A stretch of DNA of 63,199 nucleotides, counting the filler, from Perkinsus olseni (lineage: Eukaryota), in the NCBI GenBank assembly GCA_013115125.1. It is 48 parts of 48 records of this genome, joined end to end, with 100 filler letters (N's around TTAATTAATTAA, not from the genome) between each part and the next. Parts side by side here need not be neighbours in the genome. Positions count along the whole stretch, not along the records: positions 26,718 to 27,938 come from JABANN010002025.1; 47 more parts are not named here. One strand, given 5' to 3'. Made by a program: the position numbers and the translations under genes. The notes beneath the pieces are model-generated. The model ran no database searches and was not told where the DNA came from. It saw only the letters and a list, made by a program, of their open reading frames with translations. Shown here in pieces: positions 1,354-63,199 of this stretch (position 1 is the stretch's first letter; each line of letters begins with the position of its first letter).

Positions 1354-1418
1354 TTGATCGGCAGGGCGGGACGAGTCGAGTTGACGAGTTTTGGGTGGGA
1401 AGCTGCGATCGGGCCTAG
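1354..1418 (+). mobile_element. Candidate right end of a GTG...CTAG element (divergent)
   Basis: 65 bp at contig start ending GCTGCGA-N5-CCTAG followed by GT, the same spacing as GCTGCGAGTGTGCCTAG in the 13427/31829/40141/56836 copies. Confidence 0.45.
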
Positions 1419-13426: not shown

Positions 13427-13497
13427 CCTGCATCGCAACACAATGAATGTCTAACTCGAGATCGCACGTCTAGCGGCTTTGCTGCGAGTGTGGCTAG
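13427..13497 (+). mobile_element. Right end of GTG...CTAG element (type A)
   Basis: Near-identical to 31829-31896(rc), 40071-40141 and 56836-56905; ends GTGTGGCTAG|GT and truncates an integrase tail. Confidence 0.85.
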
Positions 13498-25396: not shown

Positions 25397-25462
25397 GGGT
25401 CCTTCCCCGCTCGGGCCGCTACATTTGTGAGGTACCCCGCATAGAGCGAGGCCTCCGTCCAC
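25397..25462 (-). mobile_element. Left end of GTG...CTAG element (type C)
   Basis: Reverse complement matches 63133-63198; junction tCTCG|GTGGACGG; truncates the protease at KVLG. Confidence 0.85.
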
Positions 25463-26617: not shown

Positions 26618-26717
26618 NNNNNNNNNNNNNNNNNNNNNNNNNNNNNNNNNNNNNNNNNNNNTTAATTAATTAANNNNNNNNNNNNNNNNNNNNNNNNNNN
26701 NNNNNNNNNNNNNNNNN

Positions 26718-26786
26718 GAGCTGGAAACGCGCGCGGGGCCCTACCCACGCGCTGAAAAATAATTGTGACGGGATAACGTCAAACAC
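26718..26786 (-). mobile_element. Left end of GTG...CTAG element (type C-related)
   Basis: gCTAG|GTGTTTGACG; TGACG/CGTCA hairpin, TCACAA, then GGGTAGGGCCCCGCG hairpin shared with 57965-58032. Confidence 0.7.
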
Positions 26787-27114
26787 CTAGCGGTGCGCTG
26801 CCTGATCGGTGCACTTCGTTGGCACCATGCTAGTGCCGGGTCGGTCGGGGGTGGTGCTGGGTGGTTCTGCTCTTGCCGCAACTCCGTTGCGTGCTGCTGA
26901 CTTGCTCTCATGCCGCTGCGCTGTGCTGTACTGGTGCTGGACTGGTTGCGCTGTCTCGCGCCACTTGCCGTAGTGTCGCTCGGGGCAGCTCTAGCTTGAT
27001 CCTATGCCGTCGGCGGTTGCGCTGGCGCGCGTTACTTAGAGTGGTGGTGGGGGGAATTGAACCTGTGACATTGGGCCGGTCCGCGCACCCCACTGCGGTG
27101 GGGACCCCGCACGG

Positions 27115-27187
27115 ACCTTCTGGAGTTTGAACCTGCGACCTGAGGGATGATAGACCTGAGACATGACCATTCGAGTAGTACCTACTG
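27115..27187 (-). pseudogene. Degenerate tRNA-like unit
   Basis: CAGTAG leader, B-box GGTTCAAACTCC, tRNA-like spacing, arms do not pair. Confidence 0.5.
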
Positions 27188-27253
27188 TGACGAGAGTACT
27201 GTTTGTTGAGACTCCTGCACCGATAAGAGAGTGTTGTGTGATAATGCTACTGA

Positions 27254-27330
27254 TTCTCTACCCAGGGTTTGAACCTGGGTCACCAGCATGACAGTCCACA
27301 GCACTAACTACTAGGCTACCCTGACTACTG
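27254..27330 (-). pseudogene. Degenerate tRNA(Asp-GTC)-like unit
   Basis: A-box TAGCCTAGTAG, CT-GTC-AT at the anticodon position, T-arm CCAGGTTCAAACCCTGG. Confidence 0.6.
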
Positions 27331-27496
27331 ACCTGATAGCCTGTGTCTTGAGCACCCCACTTGTCTGACACTTGGAGCTGTCATTGTCTGGCTTCTGTCG
27401 TGTCCCTCTGACTCCCCGAGTCCGAACTTCGCTACTGAACACTCCCACACCCCAGTCGGACACCTAATCCAAGTACTGAGACTGTTTCCTTAATAT

Positions 27497-27573
27497 TTCC
27501 CAACCTGGGATTGAACCCGGGTCACTCGACCAACAACCCAGAACCCTAACCAACTACACTAGTCTGACTACTG
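27497..27573 (-). pseudogene. Degenerate tRNA-like unit
   Basis: CAGTAGTCAG leader shared with the previous unit, A-box TAGTGTAGTTGG, B-box GGTTCAATCCC. Confidence 0.6.
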
Positions 27574-27868
27574 AAGAGACAACTGTAGTAAAATCGACGG
27601 GAATTTTAATTCCAAAACACTAAATCGATTATAGCTCGTAAATGGCTCATAAAATTGAAAAAATTCCTTCACTATAATACTCAGCTCGACGAGAGGAGTC
27701 GATTGGTGACCTTTTCAGCCCCATCCTATGTGCCAATCACGAAATCGGCTTCAGCACTGCGCATTTTTGCAGTGAGCCTCCATACGGCACAATAGAGCGC
27801 GCCCGGGGCCCCTCCCCCAGGCTACAAAAAAAGTAGCGGAGGAGATGAAGATACGCTGCTCCCTGCAC

Positions 27869-27938
27869 CTAGCGACCGAACGTCCAAAGGCCGCTAGAGG
27901 CTCCTCAAGGGGCACTAGGTACCACAGAGGTAGGAGGA
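27869..27938 (-). mobile_element. Right end of GTG...CTAG element (type A-related)
   Basis: 70 bp at contig end; TCTAGCGGC shared with type A; hairpin CTAGCGGCC..GGTCGCTAG ends at GCTAG|GT. Confidence 0.7.
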
Positions 27939-28071
27939 NNNNNNNNNNNNNNNNNNNNNNNNNNNNNNNNNNNNNNNNNNNNTTAATTAATTAANNNNNN
28001 NNNNNNNNNNNNNNNNNNNNNNNNNNNNNNNNNNNNNNTATGTCCTGCCCAATTTCTGCGATGGTATATAT

Positions 28072-31828: not shown

Positions 31829-31896
31829 CTAGGCACACTCGCAGCAAAGCCGCTAGACGTGCGATCTCGAGTTAGGCATTCATTGTGTTGCGATGG
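31829..31896 (-). mobile_element. Right end of GTG...CTAG element (type A)
   Basis: Reverse complement matches 56838-56905; junction GTGTGCCTAG|TT. Confidence 0.85.
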
Positions 31897-39880: not shown

Positions 39881-39949
39881 ACCCCAACGCGCAATGTTTG
39901 GTAGTACTGCGTATGTTTTTGTTTCTGGCGAAACCGGCGCGTTACCCAC
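39881..39949 (-). mobile_element. Left end of GTG...CTAG element (type B variant)
   Basis: tCTAG|GTGGGTAACGCGCCGGTTTCGCCAGAAAC, compared with GTGGTAAGGCGCCGGGTTTGCCAAAAAC at 47787 and 62077. Confidence 0.7.
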
Positions 39950-40141
39950 CTAGACCTATCACTTGCCTTACTTGTGCCTTCCCACGGCATTTACGACCCG
40001 CTGATCCATTCGACTGCTCTTTGTTTCGCTGGTTCACGTATTTGGCTGCATGTATCGCAGACTAATACGACCTCCATCGCAACACAATGAATGCCTAACT
40101 CGAGATCGCACGTCTAGCGGCTTTGCTGCGAGTGTGCCTAG
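39950..40141 (+). mobile_element. Right end of type A element (longest view, up to ~190 bp)
   Basis: Last 70 bp match 56836-56905; junction CCTAG|AT; the upstream extent is inferred. Confidence 0.75.
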
Positions 40142-41090: not shown

Positions 41091-42327
41091 NNNNNNNNNN
41101 NNNNNNNNNNNNNNNNNNNNNNNNNNNNNNNNNNTTAATTAATTAANNNNNNNNNNNNNNNNNNNNNNNNNNNNNNNNNNNNNNNNNNNNTGGGAAAGCA
41201 GTATTTCATCAAATGATGGTCCACCCGGGCGCAGCTCTGTCAACAAAGAAGCACCTCGTTATATTGGAAGAAAACTCCCGTGTGTCGTGGACAGTGAAGT
41301 TGGCGGCCGTCGCGAGAGGCTCGTGTTTTTGTTAGGCGTTTTTCATGTACACTCCACCACTACCGGGATGAGAGACAGACGCCTTGGAGAGATCGTATCT
41401 TCGCAGAGTCACTCGAAAGAAGTAAGGTTACACCACAAACCGCGTACGCGGATGGCTACTCACGCGCAGTTCTCGGTGTGACCCCTGGTGGAGCTTCAGC
41501 CGCGTTCGGACCTGATTCGGTTGCATACGTTTTTGCCTCGAACGCTTCTCCAAGTCTCAGGGCGAGAGCAATCCTCGTGGCGTGTCGAACTACGCCAAGA
41601 TGATGAGGAGTTCAGGTCCTGGCTGCATGTATGCTGCGGTGGCCGTCCAGGTCTGGCGAGGACGACTCCAATGGTCGAGTCCTCCTCATCACTAGTGGTC
41701 TAGATAAGACATTGAGGTGGGGCACCGTTCTTCACTGTGGGAGCGTTGCCCCAGGAATGTCCTTCCGGCAGGTTCTGGGATGGAAACTTCACCAGAATCA
41801 AGATCTGGGAGTTTCCCAAAACGTACATCGGCTCGCTGTGTTGGGCTGCTCAAAGGCACACTTTGTTCGGGGCGGATCATTTCGGGGACTGTGTCTATCA
41901 GTGGACCATCGCTTCATGGACAGAAGTGAGTTATTCACTGGACGAGCTCTAACCGGACGCTGAAGAGTCGGAGTGCCTAGCACTCCCACACTAGCTGGAT
42001 CGCAGTTACGCACCCAGGAGACACCCACCACTCTGAGGCGAATCCATGCTGACTCGGCAGCGCATAGTTCGACTATCAATCGAATTCTATGGATCGATCG
42101 TCTGGAAGCCATTGTTACTGCGGGGATGGACAAGTAGGCGGCTGATCGAGGCTCTGGGTGACCATGGCTCTCAGAAAGATCATTCTATGGGACACGATAC
42201 AATGTCGAACTCTGTACGAGTTGAGCGGTGCGCATACCAAGGGTGTCATGCATTTGGCGTATAGTGATGCGTCATGTAAGAAGCCATAGGGTGTCTGCTC
42301 TCGTGAGGAACTACATTGACTGAAACA

Positions 42328-42399
42328 TACCCGATGCAGGATTCGAACCTACGACCATCTGCTCCGTAGGCAGACATTCTATCCAGCTGAACTAATCGG
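42328..42399 (-). tRNA. tRNA-Arg(ACG), ~2 nt of 5' end cut by the gap
   Basis: Anticodon arm TCTGC-CTACGGA-GCAGA, T-loop GGTTCGAATCC, acceptor CCGAT/ATCGG. Confidence 0.93.
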
Positions 42400-42499
42400 N
42401 NNNNNNNNNNNNNNNNNNNNNNNNNNNNNNNNNNNNNNNNNNNTTAATTAATTAANNNNNNNNNNNNNNNNNNNNNNNNNNNNNNNNNNNNNNNNNNNN

Positions 42500-47721: not shown

Positions 47722-47787
47722 CCAGGCTCGCTGATGTGTCGCTTGCGCGACAGTTTATGGTTTTTGGCAAACCCGGCGCCTTACCAC
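47722..47787 (-). mobile_element. Left end of GTG...CTAG element (type B)
   Basis: Matches 62012-62077; junction cCTTG|GTGGTAAG interrupts the integrase (D)QG motif; TGTCGC-GCAA-GCGACA hairpin. Confidence 0.85.
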
Positions 47788-49024: not shown

Positions 49025-49250
49025 AGCAACCCGAGATGAGGTACTTGCAGGAACCACGGCCGTAGAGACTTTCATACCAACCACCGTATACTAGGTACGT
49101 CACAGAGCTTCCAGTGTCGATACCGAGTCCTATCACATAACCATCGAAGTTCATCCTTACTCGACTTCTCTTCATTGGAAATGATAGCACCGAAGAGGTA
49201 AAGGCCAGCTTCCACGTCAGTGCTGACTGGAGAATCGCCGACCCCCGCAT
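49025..49250 (-). CDS. Pepsin-like aspartyl protease N-terminus
   Basis: FDG...LGIDTGSS catalytic motif; ATG directly follows a pyrimidine tract + CAG. Confidence 0.75.
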
Positions 49251-50150: not shown

Positions 50151-50227
50151 GTCAGTTTGGCCGAGTGGTCTAAGGCGCCAGACTCAAGTTCTGGTGGAGA
50201 GATCCTCGTGGGTTCGAATCCCACAGC
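50151..50227 (+). tRNA. tRNA-Leu(CAA), 3' end cut by the gap
   Basis: TGGCCGAGTGGTCTAAGGC D-arm, CCAGA-CTCAAGT-TCTGG anticodon arm, long variable arm, GGTTCGAATCC. Confidence 0.93.
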
Positions 50228-51629: not shown

Positions 51630-52774
51630 GAGCTCCTCATCGTAGAGCTATGGAACAAGAACGTTCTCGACAACGACTGTATGTTGGACAACGTGTTCGA
51701 GTTAAGCTTTTCCGCTCCGGCCGTGAGCCTGGTTACAAGCTCCTTCCTAAGTGGCAGCCCGACTGGTACATCATGAAGTTCATCCAAGGTGTCAACAACA
51801 AGACGGTGGTCCTACGACATTTCCCTGATCTGTCTGAGAAGGTCATCATCTCCACTGACTTCTTGTTGGCTGACCCGGTTCAGCCTCATGTAGTGCCCCC
51901 TCAACTTGGCGTTGTGCGTATGGACCCCCCGGTAGAAGAAGCCCCTTCTGCGCCGAGCTTTCCCTTTCGACGACTTGGTGATGAGGTTCCGGAAGATGTG
52001 TTTACTCCCCCTCAAGGTCGTGACTATGTTTCGGCCCGAGAAGCGGAGACGGTTGTTCTATCAAGCCCAATTCCGGTACCTCTTGTCCCGGACGCAACGC
52101 TTGGTTGGAGACTACATGGTGTCGAAGTTCGACCGGGCCCTGTTCAACGCGAGATGGCACCGCAAATGTTGGTTGATGACGAGGTTGCTCATGTACGGAG
52201 CCCTGACTCTCAGGACTCTGGTGTGCAGCGAAACGAGATGTTGGCCCCGGAGATCCCCGAGGTTCCCGAGATGGAGGAGGCAGCTGATGATGAGCCTCTT
52301 TCGGTACCGTCACGAGCATCTTCGGACCGACCTTCTTTGGTGCAGTCTCCAGCTTCTTCGGAAGCAGTTGTGGACCCACCAAGTGCGGATCGTGACATCT
52401 CTCTGCTACCGGCGCCATTGACTAGGACTCCGGCATCTGATGCTTCGATGGAGGTGCATCGAGAAGAGAATTCTGAGGCGGATGACTTGTCGTCGCTTCA
52501 TGATCTCTTTGCGACTCCTGAGGGTAGTTCGGCCCGTAGTGCTGCTACCCCTTTGGCCGAAGGTTCGGCCCGTTCAGAAGGTTCTGACCACCCAAGTCCC
52601 GTGGTTGCCGCTGATGACCCTGGCGACCATCAAGATGTTGCTGCGGATTCTCAACCTCAAGGTCCTTCTCAGCCTGAGGTAGCCCCCTCGCATGTGTCGA
52701 GGTCTGGTCGTACGGTTCGACCTCCTAGGAGGTATTCGCCTGGTGCTTATACTTCCCAGGGTGGCCTTAAGTAA
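51630..52774 (+). CDS. Ty3/Gypsy integrase C-terminal tail (paralogue of 13498-14661)
   Basis: Near-identical protein, ends SRSGRTVRPPRRYS; polypurine tract at 52819-52830. Confidence 0.9.
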
Positions 52775-56835: not shown

Positions 56836-56905
56836 CTCCATCGCAACACAATGAATGCCTAACTCGAGATCGCACGTCTAGCGGCTTTGCTGCGAGTGTG
56901 CCTAG
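56836..56905 (+). mobile_element. Right end of GTG...CTAG element (type A)
   Basis: Junction GTGTGCCTAG|GT; GCGGC-TTT-GCTGC hairpin 12 nt from the end. Confidence 0.85.
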
Positions 56906-57964: not shown

Positions 57965-58032
57965 GTGAACGGAGGGCTCGCTTCCATGCGGGGTACCTCA
58001 CAAATGTTAGCCCGAGCGGGAAGGGCCCCGCG
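57965..58032 (+). mobile_element. Left end of GTG...CTAG element (type C, diverged)
   Basis: cCTTG|GTGAACGG; homologous to 63133-63199 with the hairpin kept and its loop altered. Confidence 0.8.
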
Positions 58033-59258: not shown

Positions 59259-59779
59259 GCAGGGTGTACGAAATGACGGTGTACGAGTTGAAAGTGGGTG
59301 TGTGTATGAAATGACGGTGTACGAGCANNNNNNNNNNNNNNNNNNNNNNNNNNNNNNNNNNNNNNNNNNNNTTAATTAATTAANNNNNNNNNNNNNNNNN
59401 NNNNNNNNNNNNNNNNNNNNNNNNNNNACTTCAATCTGCATCTACTTCTGGACTTATCTCACTTCATCAACCAGCCTCAAGTGACAATACGTCTAGCCGG
59501 CCTCGAATTAGCTGTAGCCATCTTGAACCGAGTACGACCACGAGCCACGGAAACCAGACAACATCAAGGTAGGTCTTGAGAAAAGCGATCTCCACGTGGA
59601 TTCTCTGAGGTTACTCGCAGAAAGATGGGCATGATCAGAAACAACATCAGACAAATCCAACATAACGGCGTTATCTGCTCTGGCCAGAAACAGGAACGCA
59701 TAAGAAAGGAGCGGCTGCACGAAAGATCGCACAGCAGTCGCAGAATCAATCGCGCGACACAGAATATCGGCGGTATTAC

Positions 59780-62009: not shown

Positions 62010-62077
62010 GCCCAGGCTCGCTGATGTGTCGCTTGCGCGACAGTTTATGGTTTTTGGCAAACCCGGCGCCTTACCAC
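62010..62077 (-). mobile_element. Left end of GTG...CTAG element (type B)
   Basis: Matches 47722-47787; junction gCTGG|GTGGTAAG inside RNase H. Confidence 0.85.
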
Positions 62078-63132
62078 CCAGCAACCATTTACTACCACTG
62101 GCTGTAGATGTTGTAGTCGACACGTGATTAACTTCAGAGACAGCGTGCACAACCCATGCCCCCCCTGTCGAAGAAGCATCTGCACAACACTCGAGTACAC
62201 TCGGTGGAGAGGAACCGACGGAGTGAGTACACGGTTCTTGTAGCAAACCATTTAGACGTTGAAGACAATTCACTACCACCTCAGACTCTTTAACAGTTAG
62301 CGGTAAAGGATCATCCCACTTCGATGATTTACTACCTGCGATCCTTCGCAGCAGATCACCCAAGGCTCTAGTCTCAGCATGCTGATAGAGCGGGTCAGAG
62401 CCAGTACTCGCACAACCAGCTGCAGCAAATATCGCGCGCTTAGACCACGTAGTAACATTTAACAAATTCGAAGGGAAAGAAGACTTCTTGCAACGTAACA
62501 CCAGCTGACCATGATCAATTTGCCAAAGCAGACCCAAGTGCTTGAAAGATTCACCTTCTGCTAAGCGAGCTGTGTTACGTTCAATCTGGGGAAACTCGAA
62601 ATGAGTCCCCCTATACGTTCTATTTGTTCAATAAAACGCGAGACAACATCTGAATAATCACCCCAACATAGTATTGAGAGATCATCGAGATAAACGTATA
62701 CCAGAGAATGGCCTCGTAGGCAGCACTGATCTTGCGGTGATAGAGCAGCAAACGCTTTCTGCAGCAAGTAGTCACTCAGGCATATGAACAACCCACATGG
62801 GCCTACATTGAGGCCGAATACAAGCCGCGAACAGGAAAACGTTTGGTTATTGGACTTCAAAGTCAATGGTCGAGAAGTATGGAGGCGGTAAAACGCCTGA
62901 GCCCCGTCAAGCGTAATCAGCCTACACTTCTCTTCACTACGCCAGTTCAATCGTATCGACTGAAGAATCTGGGAACAAGTAGGGCCGCTATAACTAGCAT
63001 TCGGCAATGATTGGTTTTCCCGGCGAGCATCTACAACAGGCCTACACGGGGTACTTCGACCCGGTGAAGGGAGGGGAAACACTAGAAGTCCAGGACCCAT
63101 ATCATTACCACTTTTTAGACCTTCACTGCTAG
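62078..63132 (-). pseudogene. Divergent LTR pol (RT + start of RNase H), frameshifted
   Basis: RPVVDAR..N, LDGAQAF, RLVFGL..GP, YLDD, KHLG, ADASSTGG; frame changes at the C5/G5 run 62607-62611. Confidence 0.85.
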
Positions 63133-63199
63133 GTGGACGGAGGCCTCGCTCTATGCGGGGTACCTCACAAATGTAGCGGCCCGAGCGGGGAAGGACCCG
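63133..63199 (+). mobile_element. Left end of GTG...CTAG element (type C)
   Basis: gCTAG|GTGGACGG; hairpin GAGG-CCTCGC-TCTAT-GCGGGG-TA-CCTC. Confidence 0.85.

What the first reader, a model, noticed from the sequence alone, without database searches (positions are those of the whole stretch)
26718..27938. Head-to-tail stack of three elements with one complete 1,082-bp copy
Seen on the minus strand: [right end 27938-27869] GCTAG|GT [27868-26787] GCTAG|GT [left end 26786-26718]. The middle unit starts with the family left-end hairpin (GGG.AGGG(G)CCCCG, shared with 26718-26786 and 57965-58032) and ends in hairpins plus GCTAG. The three units are different relatives, not a simple tandem duplication. 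Inference: each insertion regenerates a CTAG|GT target, so elements can pile into cassette-like arrays, loosely analogous to integron arrays.
Basis: partly seen in the sequence, partly recalled or inferred. Interest (0 to 1): 0.85.

Follow-up and report, generated by a model that had tools for sequence, protein, structure and literature searches.

The report
Stacked target-regenerating transposons in Perkinsus
This short contig from a Perkinsus-like protist holds one whole copy and two cut-off ends of an abundant non-coding mobile element that always lands just after the four letters CTNG and itself ends in CTAG, so copies can pile up head to tail.

Summary
The coordinates are exactly one 1,221-bp contig of a eukaryotic draft assembly, very probably Perkinsus, set between artificial N/TTAATTAATTAA linkers. 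The 70- and 69-nt "ends" are the stubs a k≈71 de Bruijn assembler leaves when it runs into repeats.

The borders are real. Word depth in public runs jumps at both junctions, and both stubs, and a copy of the middle unit's 3' end, occur with other neighbours.

Screening all 96 contig ends found more ends. The family is 5'-GTG…CTAG-3', with no terminal inverted repeats and no target duplication. Its 5' flank is always C-T-N-G (9 of 9), with T at +2 after the 3' end. Two filled/empty comparisons give the target as CTTG|NT. Insertions lie in LTR-retrotransposon ORFs in both orientations, so the elements are not intron-like.

The closest logic is IS91/Helitron rolling-circle elements (target CTTG/CTCG, ter end CTCG, no duplication, head-to-tail arrays), not integrons. 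No transposase was seen, so the mechanism is inferred. The middle unit is non-coding, internally a mosaic, and carries decayed tRNA-like modules.

Verdict: a real stack, a probable new variant of a known kind, of moderate interest.

The parts
27869..27938 (-). X stub: the last 70 nt (3' end) of an upstream element, ending ...TCTAGCGGCCTTTGGACGTTCGGTCGCTAG. It is cut off by the contig end. The terminal GGTCGCTAG (27877-27869) can pair with CTAGCGGCC (27897-27889).
   Evidence: It shares TCTAGCGGC(C)TTTG...CTAG with the 3' ends on c13427, c56836, c30678 and c39881. Word depth is about 20-fold above the middle. X7 record 25 matches 27866-27938 and then runs into 133 unlike letters.
26787..27868 (-). 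Middle unit, 1,082 bp: 5'-GTGCAGGG...CACCGCTAG-3'. It is non-coding, has no terminal inverted repeats and is the only complete member seen.
   Evidence: longest ORF 112 aa; no Pfam; no terminal inverted repeat; highly repeated: 740 Logan contigs of run X1 laid over the whole 1,221-bp contig, word depth 1.5k-55k across the middle; variant blocks.
27797..27844 (-). 5' subterminal region of the middle unit. It holds the hairpin CTCCTCCGCTAC-T7-GTAGC..GGGGGAG and the family motif GGGGGAGGGGCCCCGGGCGCGC.
   Evidence: fold; not better than shuffles, z -1.05. (motif enriched). D3 (35 nt, 74% to the Y stub).
27498..27567 (-). Decayed tRNA-Asn(GTT)-like cloverleaf with A-box- and B-box-like motifs. A second tRNA-like module lies at 27262-27318, and two further T-arm-like motifs lie near 27133 and 27063.
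   Evidence: ARAGORN only at a relaxed threshold. (none at default settings). (Rfam tRNA 15.6 bits, below the gathering score of 29). (4 of the window's 13 GGTTCRA..CC motifs). (spacings of 242-243 and 70-71).
26787..26833 (-). 3' end of the middle unit: CTAGC(AT)GGTGC ... GCACCGCTAG. The terminal GCTAG pairs with the upstream CTAGC.
   Evidence: pairing present, z +0.48, not significant. X7 record 19, a copy with 37 differences in 343, stays alike to 26784 and is then unlike. X1 loose end at 26796: other elements share only the last ~10 nt.
26718..26786 (-). Y stub: the first 69 nt (5' end) of a downstream element, GTGTTTGACG..., with the GC-rich hairpin CGCGTGGG-TAGGGC-CCCGCGCG. It is cut off by the contig end.
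   Evidence: z -3.37, 0 of 200 shuffles; contigs of X5 and X7 match 26718-26787 and then differ, giving another neighbour that reads ...CCTCG|GTGTTTG on this strand.
25397..25462 (-). Type-A 5' stub (GTGGACGGAGG...), flank CTCG. It interrupts, in sense, the Gag-protease ORF of a Bel/Pao-like LTR retrotransposon.
57965..58032 (+). Type-A 5' stub (GTGAACGGAGG...), flank CTTG.
63133..63199 (+). Type-A 5' stub (GTGGACGGAGG...), flank CTAG.
47722..47787 (-). Type-B 5' stub (GTGGTAAGGCGCCGGG...), flank CTTG. It sits antisense in the integrase ORF of a young LTR retrotransposon.
62010..62077 (-). Type-B 5' stub, flank CTGG.
39881..39949 (-). Type-B' 5' stub (GTGGGTAACGCGCCGG...), flank CTAG.
13427..13497 (+). 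3' stub ...TCTAGCGGCTTTGCTGCGAGTGTGGCTAG, followed by GTGGAGCC. It sits antisense to an rve_3-bearing retrotransposon ORF.
56836..56905 (+). 3' stub ...GTGTGCCTAG, followed by GTCC. The next 1,059 bp are a Gag zinc-knuckle/aspartyl-protease fragment.
31829..31896 (-). 3' stub ...GTGTGCCTAG, followed by TTCG.
40072..40141 (+). Internal copy of the same 3' end, followed by ATTG.
52376..52383 (-). Paralogous empty site ...GCACTTG|GTGGGTCC... The junction lies between 52380 and 52379. It matches the filled site on c13427.
   Evidence: (754 nt, 93.4%).

Best explanation
What it is: the contig is a head-to-tail pile of three different non-autonomous members of one abundant transposon family of a Perkinsus-like protist. 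Only the middle member (1,082 bp) is complete, because the short-read assembler stopped about 70 nt into the repeats on either side.

Family features:
- Members are 5'-GTG...CTAG-3'.
- They have a GC-rich motif or palindrome near the 5' end and an upstream CTAGC that can pair with the terminal GCTAG.
- They have no terminal inverted repeats, no ORF, and interiors that differ from member to member.
- They insert without target duplication immediately 3' of a C-T-N-G tetranucleotide, before N-T.

Stacking (inferred from shown features): the element brings its own CTAG end and GT start, so both new junctions are again CTNG|NT sites. Later insertions can therefore land flush against earlier ones.

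Mechanism (not shown): a single-strand, HUH-nuclease rolling-circle mechanism of the IS91/Helitron kind. One nuclease specificity (cut after CTNG) would serve the donor 5' cut, the donor 3' cut and the target cut. Arrays would arise from re-insertion at regenerated sites or from read-through of the terminator.
For: Borders and independence of the three parts:
- Depth steps and loose ends fall at 26784-26787 and 27866 in independent runs.
- The stubs have the k-1 length.

Family ends:
- Eight CTNG|GT stubs lie 64-74 nt from contig ends against 1.1 expected.
- The eight family 5' junctions aligned (those stubs minus the doubtful c45114, plus the middle unit) share invariant C-T-.-G-G-T.
- Six of 6 3' ends read CTAG.

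Target:
- All 9 of 9 5' flanks are CTNG: CTAG x4, CTTG x2, CTCG x3 counting the loose end, CTGG x1.
- Five of them are clearly unstacked. The window frequency of CTNG is 0.0169, so P is about 1e-9.
- T stands at +2 after the 3' end or in the empty site in 5 of 5 independent cases.

No duplication, and GTG is element-borne:
- The empty paralogue c51630 reads CTTG|GTGG where c13427 reads ...CTAG|GTGG.
- The intact 1,312-aa protein, 99% identical up to the junction, has Asp971. The empty site is therefore CCTTG|(G/A)TC, while the element starts GTGG.

The units are insertions, not introns:
- They sit in LTR-retrotransposon ORFs in sense (c25397; both ends on c56836) and in antisense (c13427, c47722).

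Analogy:
- IS91 makes no duplication. Its target is 5'-CTTG, GTTC or CTCG next to oriIS, its terIS is cut at 5'-CTCG, and both ends have subterminal palindromes (passages of PMC13181058).
- Helitrons end in CTAG after a hairpin, make no duplication and form head-to-tail junctions and tandem arrays (passages of PMC5876387).
Against: - No Rep/helicase or other HUH protein was seen. Of 94 ORFs of >=110 aa in the window, 49 were scanned against Pfam, and only retrotransposon and housekeeping domains appeared. The genome itself is not held.
- The 5' end is GT, not the Helitron TC, and the insertion site is G|N, not A|T or T|T.
- The terminal hairpins are not better than shuffles, except in the Y stub.
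- For the 5' border of the middle unit, the one other copy shown (X7 record 24) diverges 13 nt inside the border.
- With a CTNG|NT target, any DNA between two insertions starts NT and ends CTNG. The middle unit's membership therefore rests on its internal 5' motif and its 3' CTAGC...GCTAG pairing, not on its borders.
- No complete second copy could be recovered.
Confidence: 0.5

Rival explanations
1. Tyrosine-recombinase (Crypton-like, or integron-like in logic) site-specific integration. A circular form whose joint reads CTAG.GTG recombines with genomic CTNG.(N)T sites. Both hybrid junctions stay recombination sites, so units stack.
For: It predicts the same junction pattern and stacking. There are no terminal inverted repeats and no duplication.
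Against: The shared core would be only C-T-.-G plus T, with a variable third base. Recombinases of this kind usually need a longer identical overlap (established knowledge, recalled). No recombinase domain appeared among the 49 of 94 ORFs scanned. The tetranucleotides CTTG and CTCG are those of IS91.
Confidence: 0.15
2. A tRNA-derived SINE-like retroposon moved by a site-specific endonuclease/reverse transcriptase that nicks at CTNG|NT.
For: The middle unit carries decayed tRNA-like modules with A-box- and B-box-like motifs. A non-LTR endonuclease fragment is present in the window (Exo_endo_phos_2, below the curated cut-off).
Against: - The tRNA-like modules lie about 300 nt inside the unit, not at its 5' end.
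- There is no poly(A) or simple-repeat tail.
- The 5' ends are precise (GTG) in five sequence types, not truncated.
- There is no duplication.
- Other members have unrelated interiors.
Confidence: 0.1
3. Intron-generating transposons (introners), or reverse-spliced introns. The GT...AG units would be spliced from transcripts and inserted at proto-splice sites.
For: All units start GT and end AG. Every 5' flank ends in G. Three junctions lie in sense inside retrotransposon ORFs. Introners derive from many transposon classes, including ones of unknown mechanism (passages of PMC12130899).
Against: - Two of five oriented junctions are antisense to the interrupted ORF.
- The hosts are retrotransposons, not cellular genes.
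- The flank C-T-N-G is not the MAG proto-splice consensus (recalled).
- The 5' sites GTGCAG, GTGTTT, GTGGAC and GTGAAC fit GTRAGT poorly, and several AG lie upstream of the terminal AG.
- Three units abut with no exon between them.
Confidence: 0.07
4. Not a biological stack: a chimeric or collapsed contig, or a piece of a complex satellite, in which the adjacency of X, the middle and Y is an assembly product.
For: The contig is short and made wholly of repeats. No public run holds more than 0.49 of its words. No listed Logan contig spans a junction by 31 nt on both sides (table 8; only 25 of 809 records shown).
Against: - A de Bruijn contig needs reads that carry the junction k-mers.
- Stacking is seen repeatedly. 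GTG follows the 3' end in X7 records 19 and 25, and a GCTAG end precedes the type-A stub on c62010.
- X1 contigs cross 26787 by 10 nt into another ...CACCGCTAG end.
- Clean filled/empty comparisons show true insertions.
Confidence: 0.05

Closest known systems
IS91 family (IS91, IS801, IS1294), bacterial HUH Y2 rolling-circle insertion sequences
   Same: No target duplication. Insertion next to a tetranucleotide (5'-CTTG, CTCG, GTTC; T always at position 2) that abuts one end. The other end is cut after a like tetranucleotide (CTCG in IS91, CTAG here). Subterminal palindromes, two unlike ends, and read-through that carries neighbouring DNA (passages of PMC13181058).
   Different: IS91 is bacterial and encodes its transposase. 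Here the host is a eukaryote, no transposase is known, all copies seen are non-coding, and GTTC-type targets were not seen.
Helitrons / Helitron-like elements (HLE1, HLE2/Helitron2/Helentron, Phytophthora proto-Helentron)
   Same: Eukaryotic. No terminal inverted repeats (HLE1). 3' end CTAG with possible pairing just before it. No duplication. Non-autonomous copies that share only their ends. Head-to-tail junctions and tandem arrays (passages of PMC5876387 and PMC11417382).
   Different: The 5' end is GTG, not TC (HLE1) or TT (proto-Helentron). Insertion is at CTNG|NT, not A|T, T|T or T|C. The 3' pairing includes the terminal CTAG itself instead of lying about 10 nt upstream. No RepHel was seen.
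IS200/IS605 family (for example IS608)
   Same: Single-strand HUH elements that insert 3' of a fixed 4-5-nt target without duplication and have subterminal hairpins at both ends (passage of PMC5876387; details recalled).
   Different: They are bacterial or archaeal. Their target and right-end cleavage sites are read by base pairing with guide bases at the hairpin foot, which was not tested here.
Integron gene-cassette arrays
   Same: Units with a recombination site at one end stack head to tail at a regenerated site.
   Different: Integrons are bacterial. They need IntI and folded attC sites, and their cassettes carry genes. None of these is present here.
Introners (intron-generating transposons)
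   Same: Abundant non-autonomous elements with GT...AG ends in a protist (passages of PMC12130899 and PMC7789003).
   Different: Both orientations occur relative to ORFs. The hosts are retrotransposons. The units abut with no exon between them. The Amoebophrya elements have inverted and direct repeats, which these lack.

Membership tests
Helitron (HLE1) | 5' end starts TC | tested here: not met
   All eight 5' ends aligned start GTG. Definition.
Helitron (HLE1) | 3' end CTRR (CTAG) | tested here: met
   Six of 6 3' ends read CTAG.
Helitron (HLE1) | Palindrome/hairpin shortly before the 3' end | tested here: inconclusive
   CTAGC...GCTAG pairing is present in X and in the middle unit, but the folds are no better than shuffles (z -0.94, +0.48, +0.33). 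The stem includes the terminal CTAG.
Helitron (HLE1) | Inserts between A and T (HLE2: T and T) | tested here: not met
   Insertion is between the G of CTNG and N-T.
Helitron (HLE1) | No target site duplication | tested here: met
   Two filled/empty comparisons (67 with 69). The 3' ends are CTAG in 6 of 6, whereas the 5' flanks vary.
Helitron (HLE1) | Autonomous copies encode Rep/helicase | not testable with these tools
   No genome is held. None was found among the 49 of 94 window ORFs scanned.
IS91 family | Target tetranucleotide (CTTG/GTTC/CTCG) abutting one end, like tetranucleotide at the other end's cut | tested here: met
   Flanks read CTTG, CTCG, CTGG or CTAG. The element's own end is CTAG. 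Definition.
IS91 family | HUH Y2 transposase; bacterial host | tested here: not met
   The host is eukaryotic: LTR retrotransposons, and 99% identity to a protein named from Perkinsus olseni. No transposase was seen.
Introner | Sits in genes in sense and is spliced at its GT...AG ends | tested here: not met
   Two of five oriented junctions are antisense. Splicing itself could not be tested, because no RNA holder was listed.
Integron cassette array | IntI integrase, attI and attC sites, promoterless gene cassettes | tested here: not met
   No integrase of that kind and no genes in the units. The genome is eukaryotic.
Dada transposons of Perkinsus | Terminal inverted repeats, 6-7-bp duplication, insertion inside tRNA genes | tested here: not met
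   No terminal inverted repeats and no duplication. The targets are retrotransposon ORFs. Definition from passages of PMC3706591.

The most novel reading that the evidence does not exclude
Perkinsozoa would harbour a so far undescribed group of eukaryotic single-strand (HUH) transposons that keep the IS91-type rule: cut after a CTNG tetranucleotide at the donor 5' flank, at the element's own 3' end and at the target. They would number in the thousands, prefer retrotransposons and each other as landing sites, and build mixed head-to-tail arrays because every insertion regenerates two targets. That would be a missing link between bacterial IS91 and eukaryotic Helitrons.
Probability: 0.3. Interest if true: 0.75.

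Novelty: new variant of a known kind. Interest (0 to 1): 0.5.

Why it matters
If the rule CTNG|[GTG...CTAG]|NT holds genome-wide, three things follow.

- It gives a simple, testable signature for annotating a major repeat family that breaks Perkinsus short-read assemblies. At least 12 of the 96 contig ends in this window are such stubs.
- It would extend the known range of target rules of eukaryotic rolling-circle-like elements towards the bacterial IS91 rule.
- It would show a self-propagating way to build mixed transposon arrays without an integron-type machinery.

Three library searches found nothing in print on such an element or on Helitrons of Perkinsus. The supplements of the Helitron survey (PMC11417382) were not read and may list Perkinsus.

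Tried and rejected
- **Whole-genome search:** no genome is held.
- **Earlier notes:** none for this genome or these sequences.
- **Public contig scans** with two 3'-end patterns: 0 hits in metagenome contigs and 0 in genome contigs.
- **Profile search** (nhmmer) with the 5'- and 3'-end alignments: no further copy in the window (best extra hit E 0.034).
- **RNA evidence:** no RNA holder listed. X7 is only guessed to be RNA. No contig skips 26787-27868. One X7 contig skips 26806-27077 (TC..CC, side 22), which I read as a deletion variant.
- **Rfam:** only four sub-threshold matches, with no group II intron and no true tRNA.
- **CTAG as a 4-bp duplication** (IS5/MITE-like): rejected. The 5' flanks are CTTG, CTCG or CTGG, while the 3' ends are CTAG in 6 of 6, and the empty site reads CTTG.
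- **A 2-3-bp GT(G) duplication:** rejected. The 5' ends are GTG in 8 of 8, while unstacked 3' flanks are GT, GT, TT and AT, and one empty site reads (G/A)TC.
- **Terminal inverted repeats:** none.
- **Taxon from phosphoglucomutase:** uninformative, because I searched only proteins of 700 aa or more.
- **Laying reads on two contigs at once:** not possible across the linker.
Full report
**1. What the coordinates are**

The window is not one stretch of genome. It is 48 contigs of 1,253 to 1,190 bp, sorted by size and joined by N44-TTAATTAATTAA-N44 linkers. The finding, 26718-27938, is exactly one 1,221-bp contig.

Other contigs carry Ty3/gypsy and Bel/Pao-type reverse transcriptase, RNase H, integrase and zinc-knuckle fragments, a non-LTR endonuclease fragment, and housekeeping genes (phosphoglucomutase, a cation-efflux transporter, a sugar transporter). 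The genome is therefore eukaryotic.

One retrotransposon ORF is 99% identical (339 of 341 residues) to a 1,312-aa protein whose source name gives Perkinsus olseni. The window is very probably from Perkinsus or a close relative. No genome is held and there are no earlier notes.

**2. The observation**

On the minus strand the contig reads as three parts:
- a 70-nt stub X ending ...TCGGTCGCTAG;
- a 1,082-bp unit GTGCAGGG...CACCGCTAG;
- a 69-nt stub Y starting GTGTTTGACG.

In an all-against-all BLAST of the 48 contigs, 11 of the 12 hit pairs are 66-72-nt stretches sitting at contig ends. That is what a de Bruijn assembler with k near 71 leaves when a unique path runs into a repeat. The assembler itself therefore marks 27868|27869 and 26786|26787 as the points where repeats begin.

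Public runs agree (4 of 12 listed runs laid, from four studies):
- Summed word depth rises about 20-fold at the 27866 bin and about 4-fold near 26787-26799.
- Contigs match 26718-26787 or 27866-27938 and then run on into unlike sequence.
- A diverged copy of the middle unit's 3' part (37 differences in 343) stays alike to 26784 and is then unlike.

So the three parts are separate repeats with different copy numbers and other neighbours.

For the 5' border of the middle unit, the single other copy shown diverges 13 nt inside the border. That border is therefore less secure.

The whole contig is repeated DNA. In run X1, 740 Logan contigs were laid on it. There are also variant blocks: 27222-27261 is replaced in most copies, and one contig carries a 272-bp deletion.

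**3. The family**

It has 5 hits (4 distinct sites) against 0.71 expected, and 0 of 100 shuffles reach 5.

I screened all 96 contig ends for CTNG|GT lying 64-74 nt from the end. That gave 8 stubs against 1.1 expected. The 5' ends, the middle unit's included, fall into five sequence types:
- A: c25397, c56836, c62010 right end;
- B: c47722, c62010 left end;
- B': c39881;
- C: the Y stub;
- D: the middle unit.

One further hit, c45114, starts GTC and is doubtful.

Types A and B had already been found blind by BLAST. Aligned, the eight family 5' junctions (the doubtful c45114 left out, the middle unit added) share invariant C-T-.-G-G-T at the junction.

Four contigs carry the 3' end ...TCTAGCGGCTTTGCTGCGAGTGTG(C/G)CTAG. 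The X stub is a relative (TCTAGCGGCCTTTG...GCTAG), and the middle unit ends ...CTAGC(AT)GGTGC...GCACCGCTAG. All 6 of 6 3' ends are CTAG.

There are no terminal inverted repeats. The middle unit has no ORF longer than 112 aa and no Pfam match.

The terminal "hairpins" are mostly no better than shuffled sequence. Only the Y stub stands out, at z -3.37.

**4. The insertion rule**

Every 5' flank reads C-T-N-G (9 of 9):
- CTAG four times. Three of these are clearly the 3' end of another unit (those before the middle unit, the Y stub and the type-A stub on c62010). The fourth, on c39881, is of unknown origin.
- CTTG twice.
- CTCG three times, counting the other neighbour of Y seen in runs X5 and X7.
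- CTGG once.

With CTNG at a frequency of 0.0169 in the window, the five clearly unstacked cases alone give P of about 1e-9.

After the 3' end the flanks are GTGG, GTCC, TTCG and ATTG, so T is always at +2.

Two filled/empty comparisons fix the rule:
- c13427 reads ...GGCTAG|GTGGAGCC, where its 93% paralogue c51630 reads ...GCACTTG|GTGGGTCC with the ORF running on.
- c47722's flank matches the intact protein from residue 972 on. Residue 971 is Asp, so the empty site is CCTTG|(G/A)TC, while the element begins GTGG.

From these I conclude that the target is CTNG|NT, that there is no duplication, and that GTG belongs to the element.

I tested a CTAG or GT(G) duplication and rejected both (see Tried and rejected).

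**5. Where they land**

- c25397 is the Gag-protease part of a Bel/Pao-like polyprotein: 58% identity to residues 264-643 of an 1,879-aa protein with Peptidase_A17 and integrase domains. It is cut, in sense, by a type-A end.
- The 1,059 bp between the two ends on c56836 are a zinc-knuckle/aspartyl-protease fragment, in sense.
- The ends on c13427 and c47722 sit antisense in integrase ORFs.

Both orientations occur and the hosts are retrotransposons. Together with the poor splice-site fit, this makes the intron-generating reading unlikely.

**6. How it most likely works**

*Shown:* unlike ends; a fixed tetranucleotide before the 5' end and a like one (CTAG) as the 3' end; no duplication; members that share only their ends; head-to-tail abutment; very high copy number.

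*Inferred:* one nuclease that cuts after CTNG could make the donor 5' cut, the donor 3' cut and the target cut. This is how IS91 works. IS91 has its target CTTG, CTCG or GTTC beside oriIS, is cut at CTCG in terIS, makes no duplication, has palindromes at both ends and shows read-through (passages of PMC13181058). Its eukaryotic relatives, the Helitrons, end in hairpin-CTAG and form head-to-tail junctions and tandem arrays (passages of PMC5876387).

An inserted unit leaves CTNG|GT on its left and CTAG|NT on its right, so stacking follows.

The family fails the Helitron definition on two tested points: 5' TC, and an A|T or T|T target. No Rep protein could be sought. I therefore file it as "works like IS91/Helitron" and not as a member.

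**7. A caution**

With this target rule, any DNA between two insertions begins NT and ends CTNG. c56836 shows exactly that with a retrotransposon fragment.

The middle unit counts as an element for three other reasons:
- It has the family 5' motif at the right distance.
- Its CTAGC...GCTAG 3' arrangement is like that of X.
- It has a high, uneven copy number.

Its interior holds one decayed tRNA-Asn-like cloverleaf and three further T-arm-like modules. These may be captured or decayed tRNA genes. Perkinsus marinus, a relative, is known for very many tRNA genes (passages of PMC3706591).

**8. Novelty and verdict**

Library searches found nothing on a eukaryotic element with 5'-GTG and a CTNG target, or on Helitrons of Perkinsus. 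Supplements were not read.

The stack is real, and the target-regeneration idea is right in substance. The integron analogy is not apt. The mechanism is inferred, at about 0.5.

Interest is moderate. The family is probably a new variant of rolling-circle-like elements, and it causes many of the assembly breaks in this window.

Noticed in passing
whole window; linkers e.g. 26618-26717 and 27939-28038: The window is a chain of 48 size-sorted short contigs joined by N44-TTAATTAATTAA-N44. Anything that seems to span a linker is an artefact.
   Followed up: yes
2705, 22651, 25296, 34631, 41090, 42500, 55434 (contig ends): Seven contig ends run into (GTT)n or (CAA)n, in both orientations, some on low-GC contigs (0.38-0.45). 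This microsatellite is another common cause of assembly breaks.
   Followed up: no
42327-42402 (-) and 50200-50227 (+): A tRNA-Arg(ACG) runs into the end of contig c41191. Contig c49025 ends in a tRNA 3' half (GGTTCGAATCCCACAGC). Multi-copy tRNA genes seem to break the assembly too, which fits the high tRNA copy numbers reported for Perkinsus marinus (PMC3706591).
   Followed up: partly
47722-47787 (-), 62010-62077 (-), 39881-39949 (-): In the type-B and B' 5' ends, the GC-rich motif (GTGGTAAGGCGCCGGG, compare GTGGGTAGGGCCCCGCG inside the Y stub) sits at the very terminus. It looks as if types A, C and D carried an extra ~50-nt leader in front of it.
   Followed up: no
62010-63199: Contig c62010 is bounded by two family 5' ends that point outwards (type B on the left, type A on the right). 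Its inner 1,050 bp end in ...CACTGCTAG with an upstream CACTAG, so they may be another unit.
   Followed up: partly
27222-27261 and 26806-27077: In the public runs most copies of the middle unit carry a different block in place of 27222-27261: loose ends at 27221 and 27262 in X1, X5 and X7, and a depth dip. One X7 contig lacks 26806-27077.
   Followed up: no
1354-1418 (+), 9417.. (-), 49025-49094 (+), 59428-59496 (+): Four further contig ends have CTAG 65-70 nt from the end and could be 3' stubs of other family types. About 2.6 such ends are expected by chance, and two of the four lack T at +2.
   Followed up: partly
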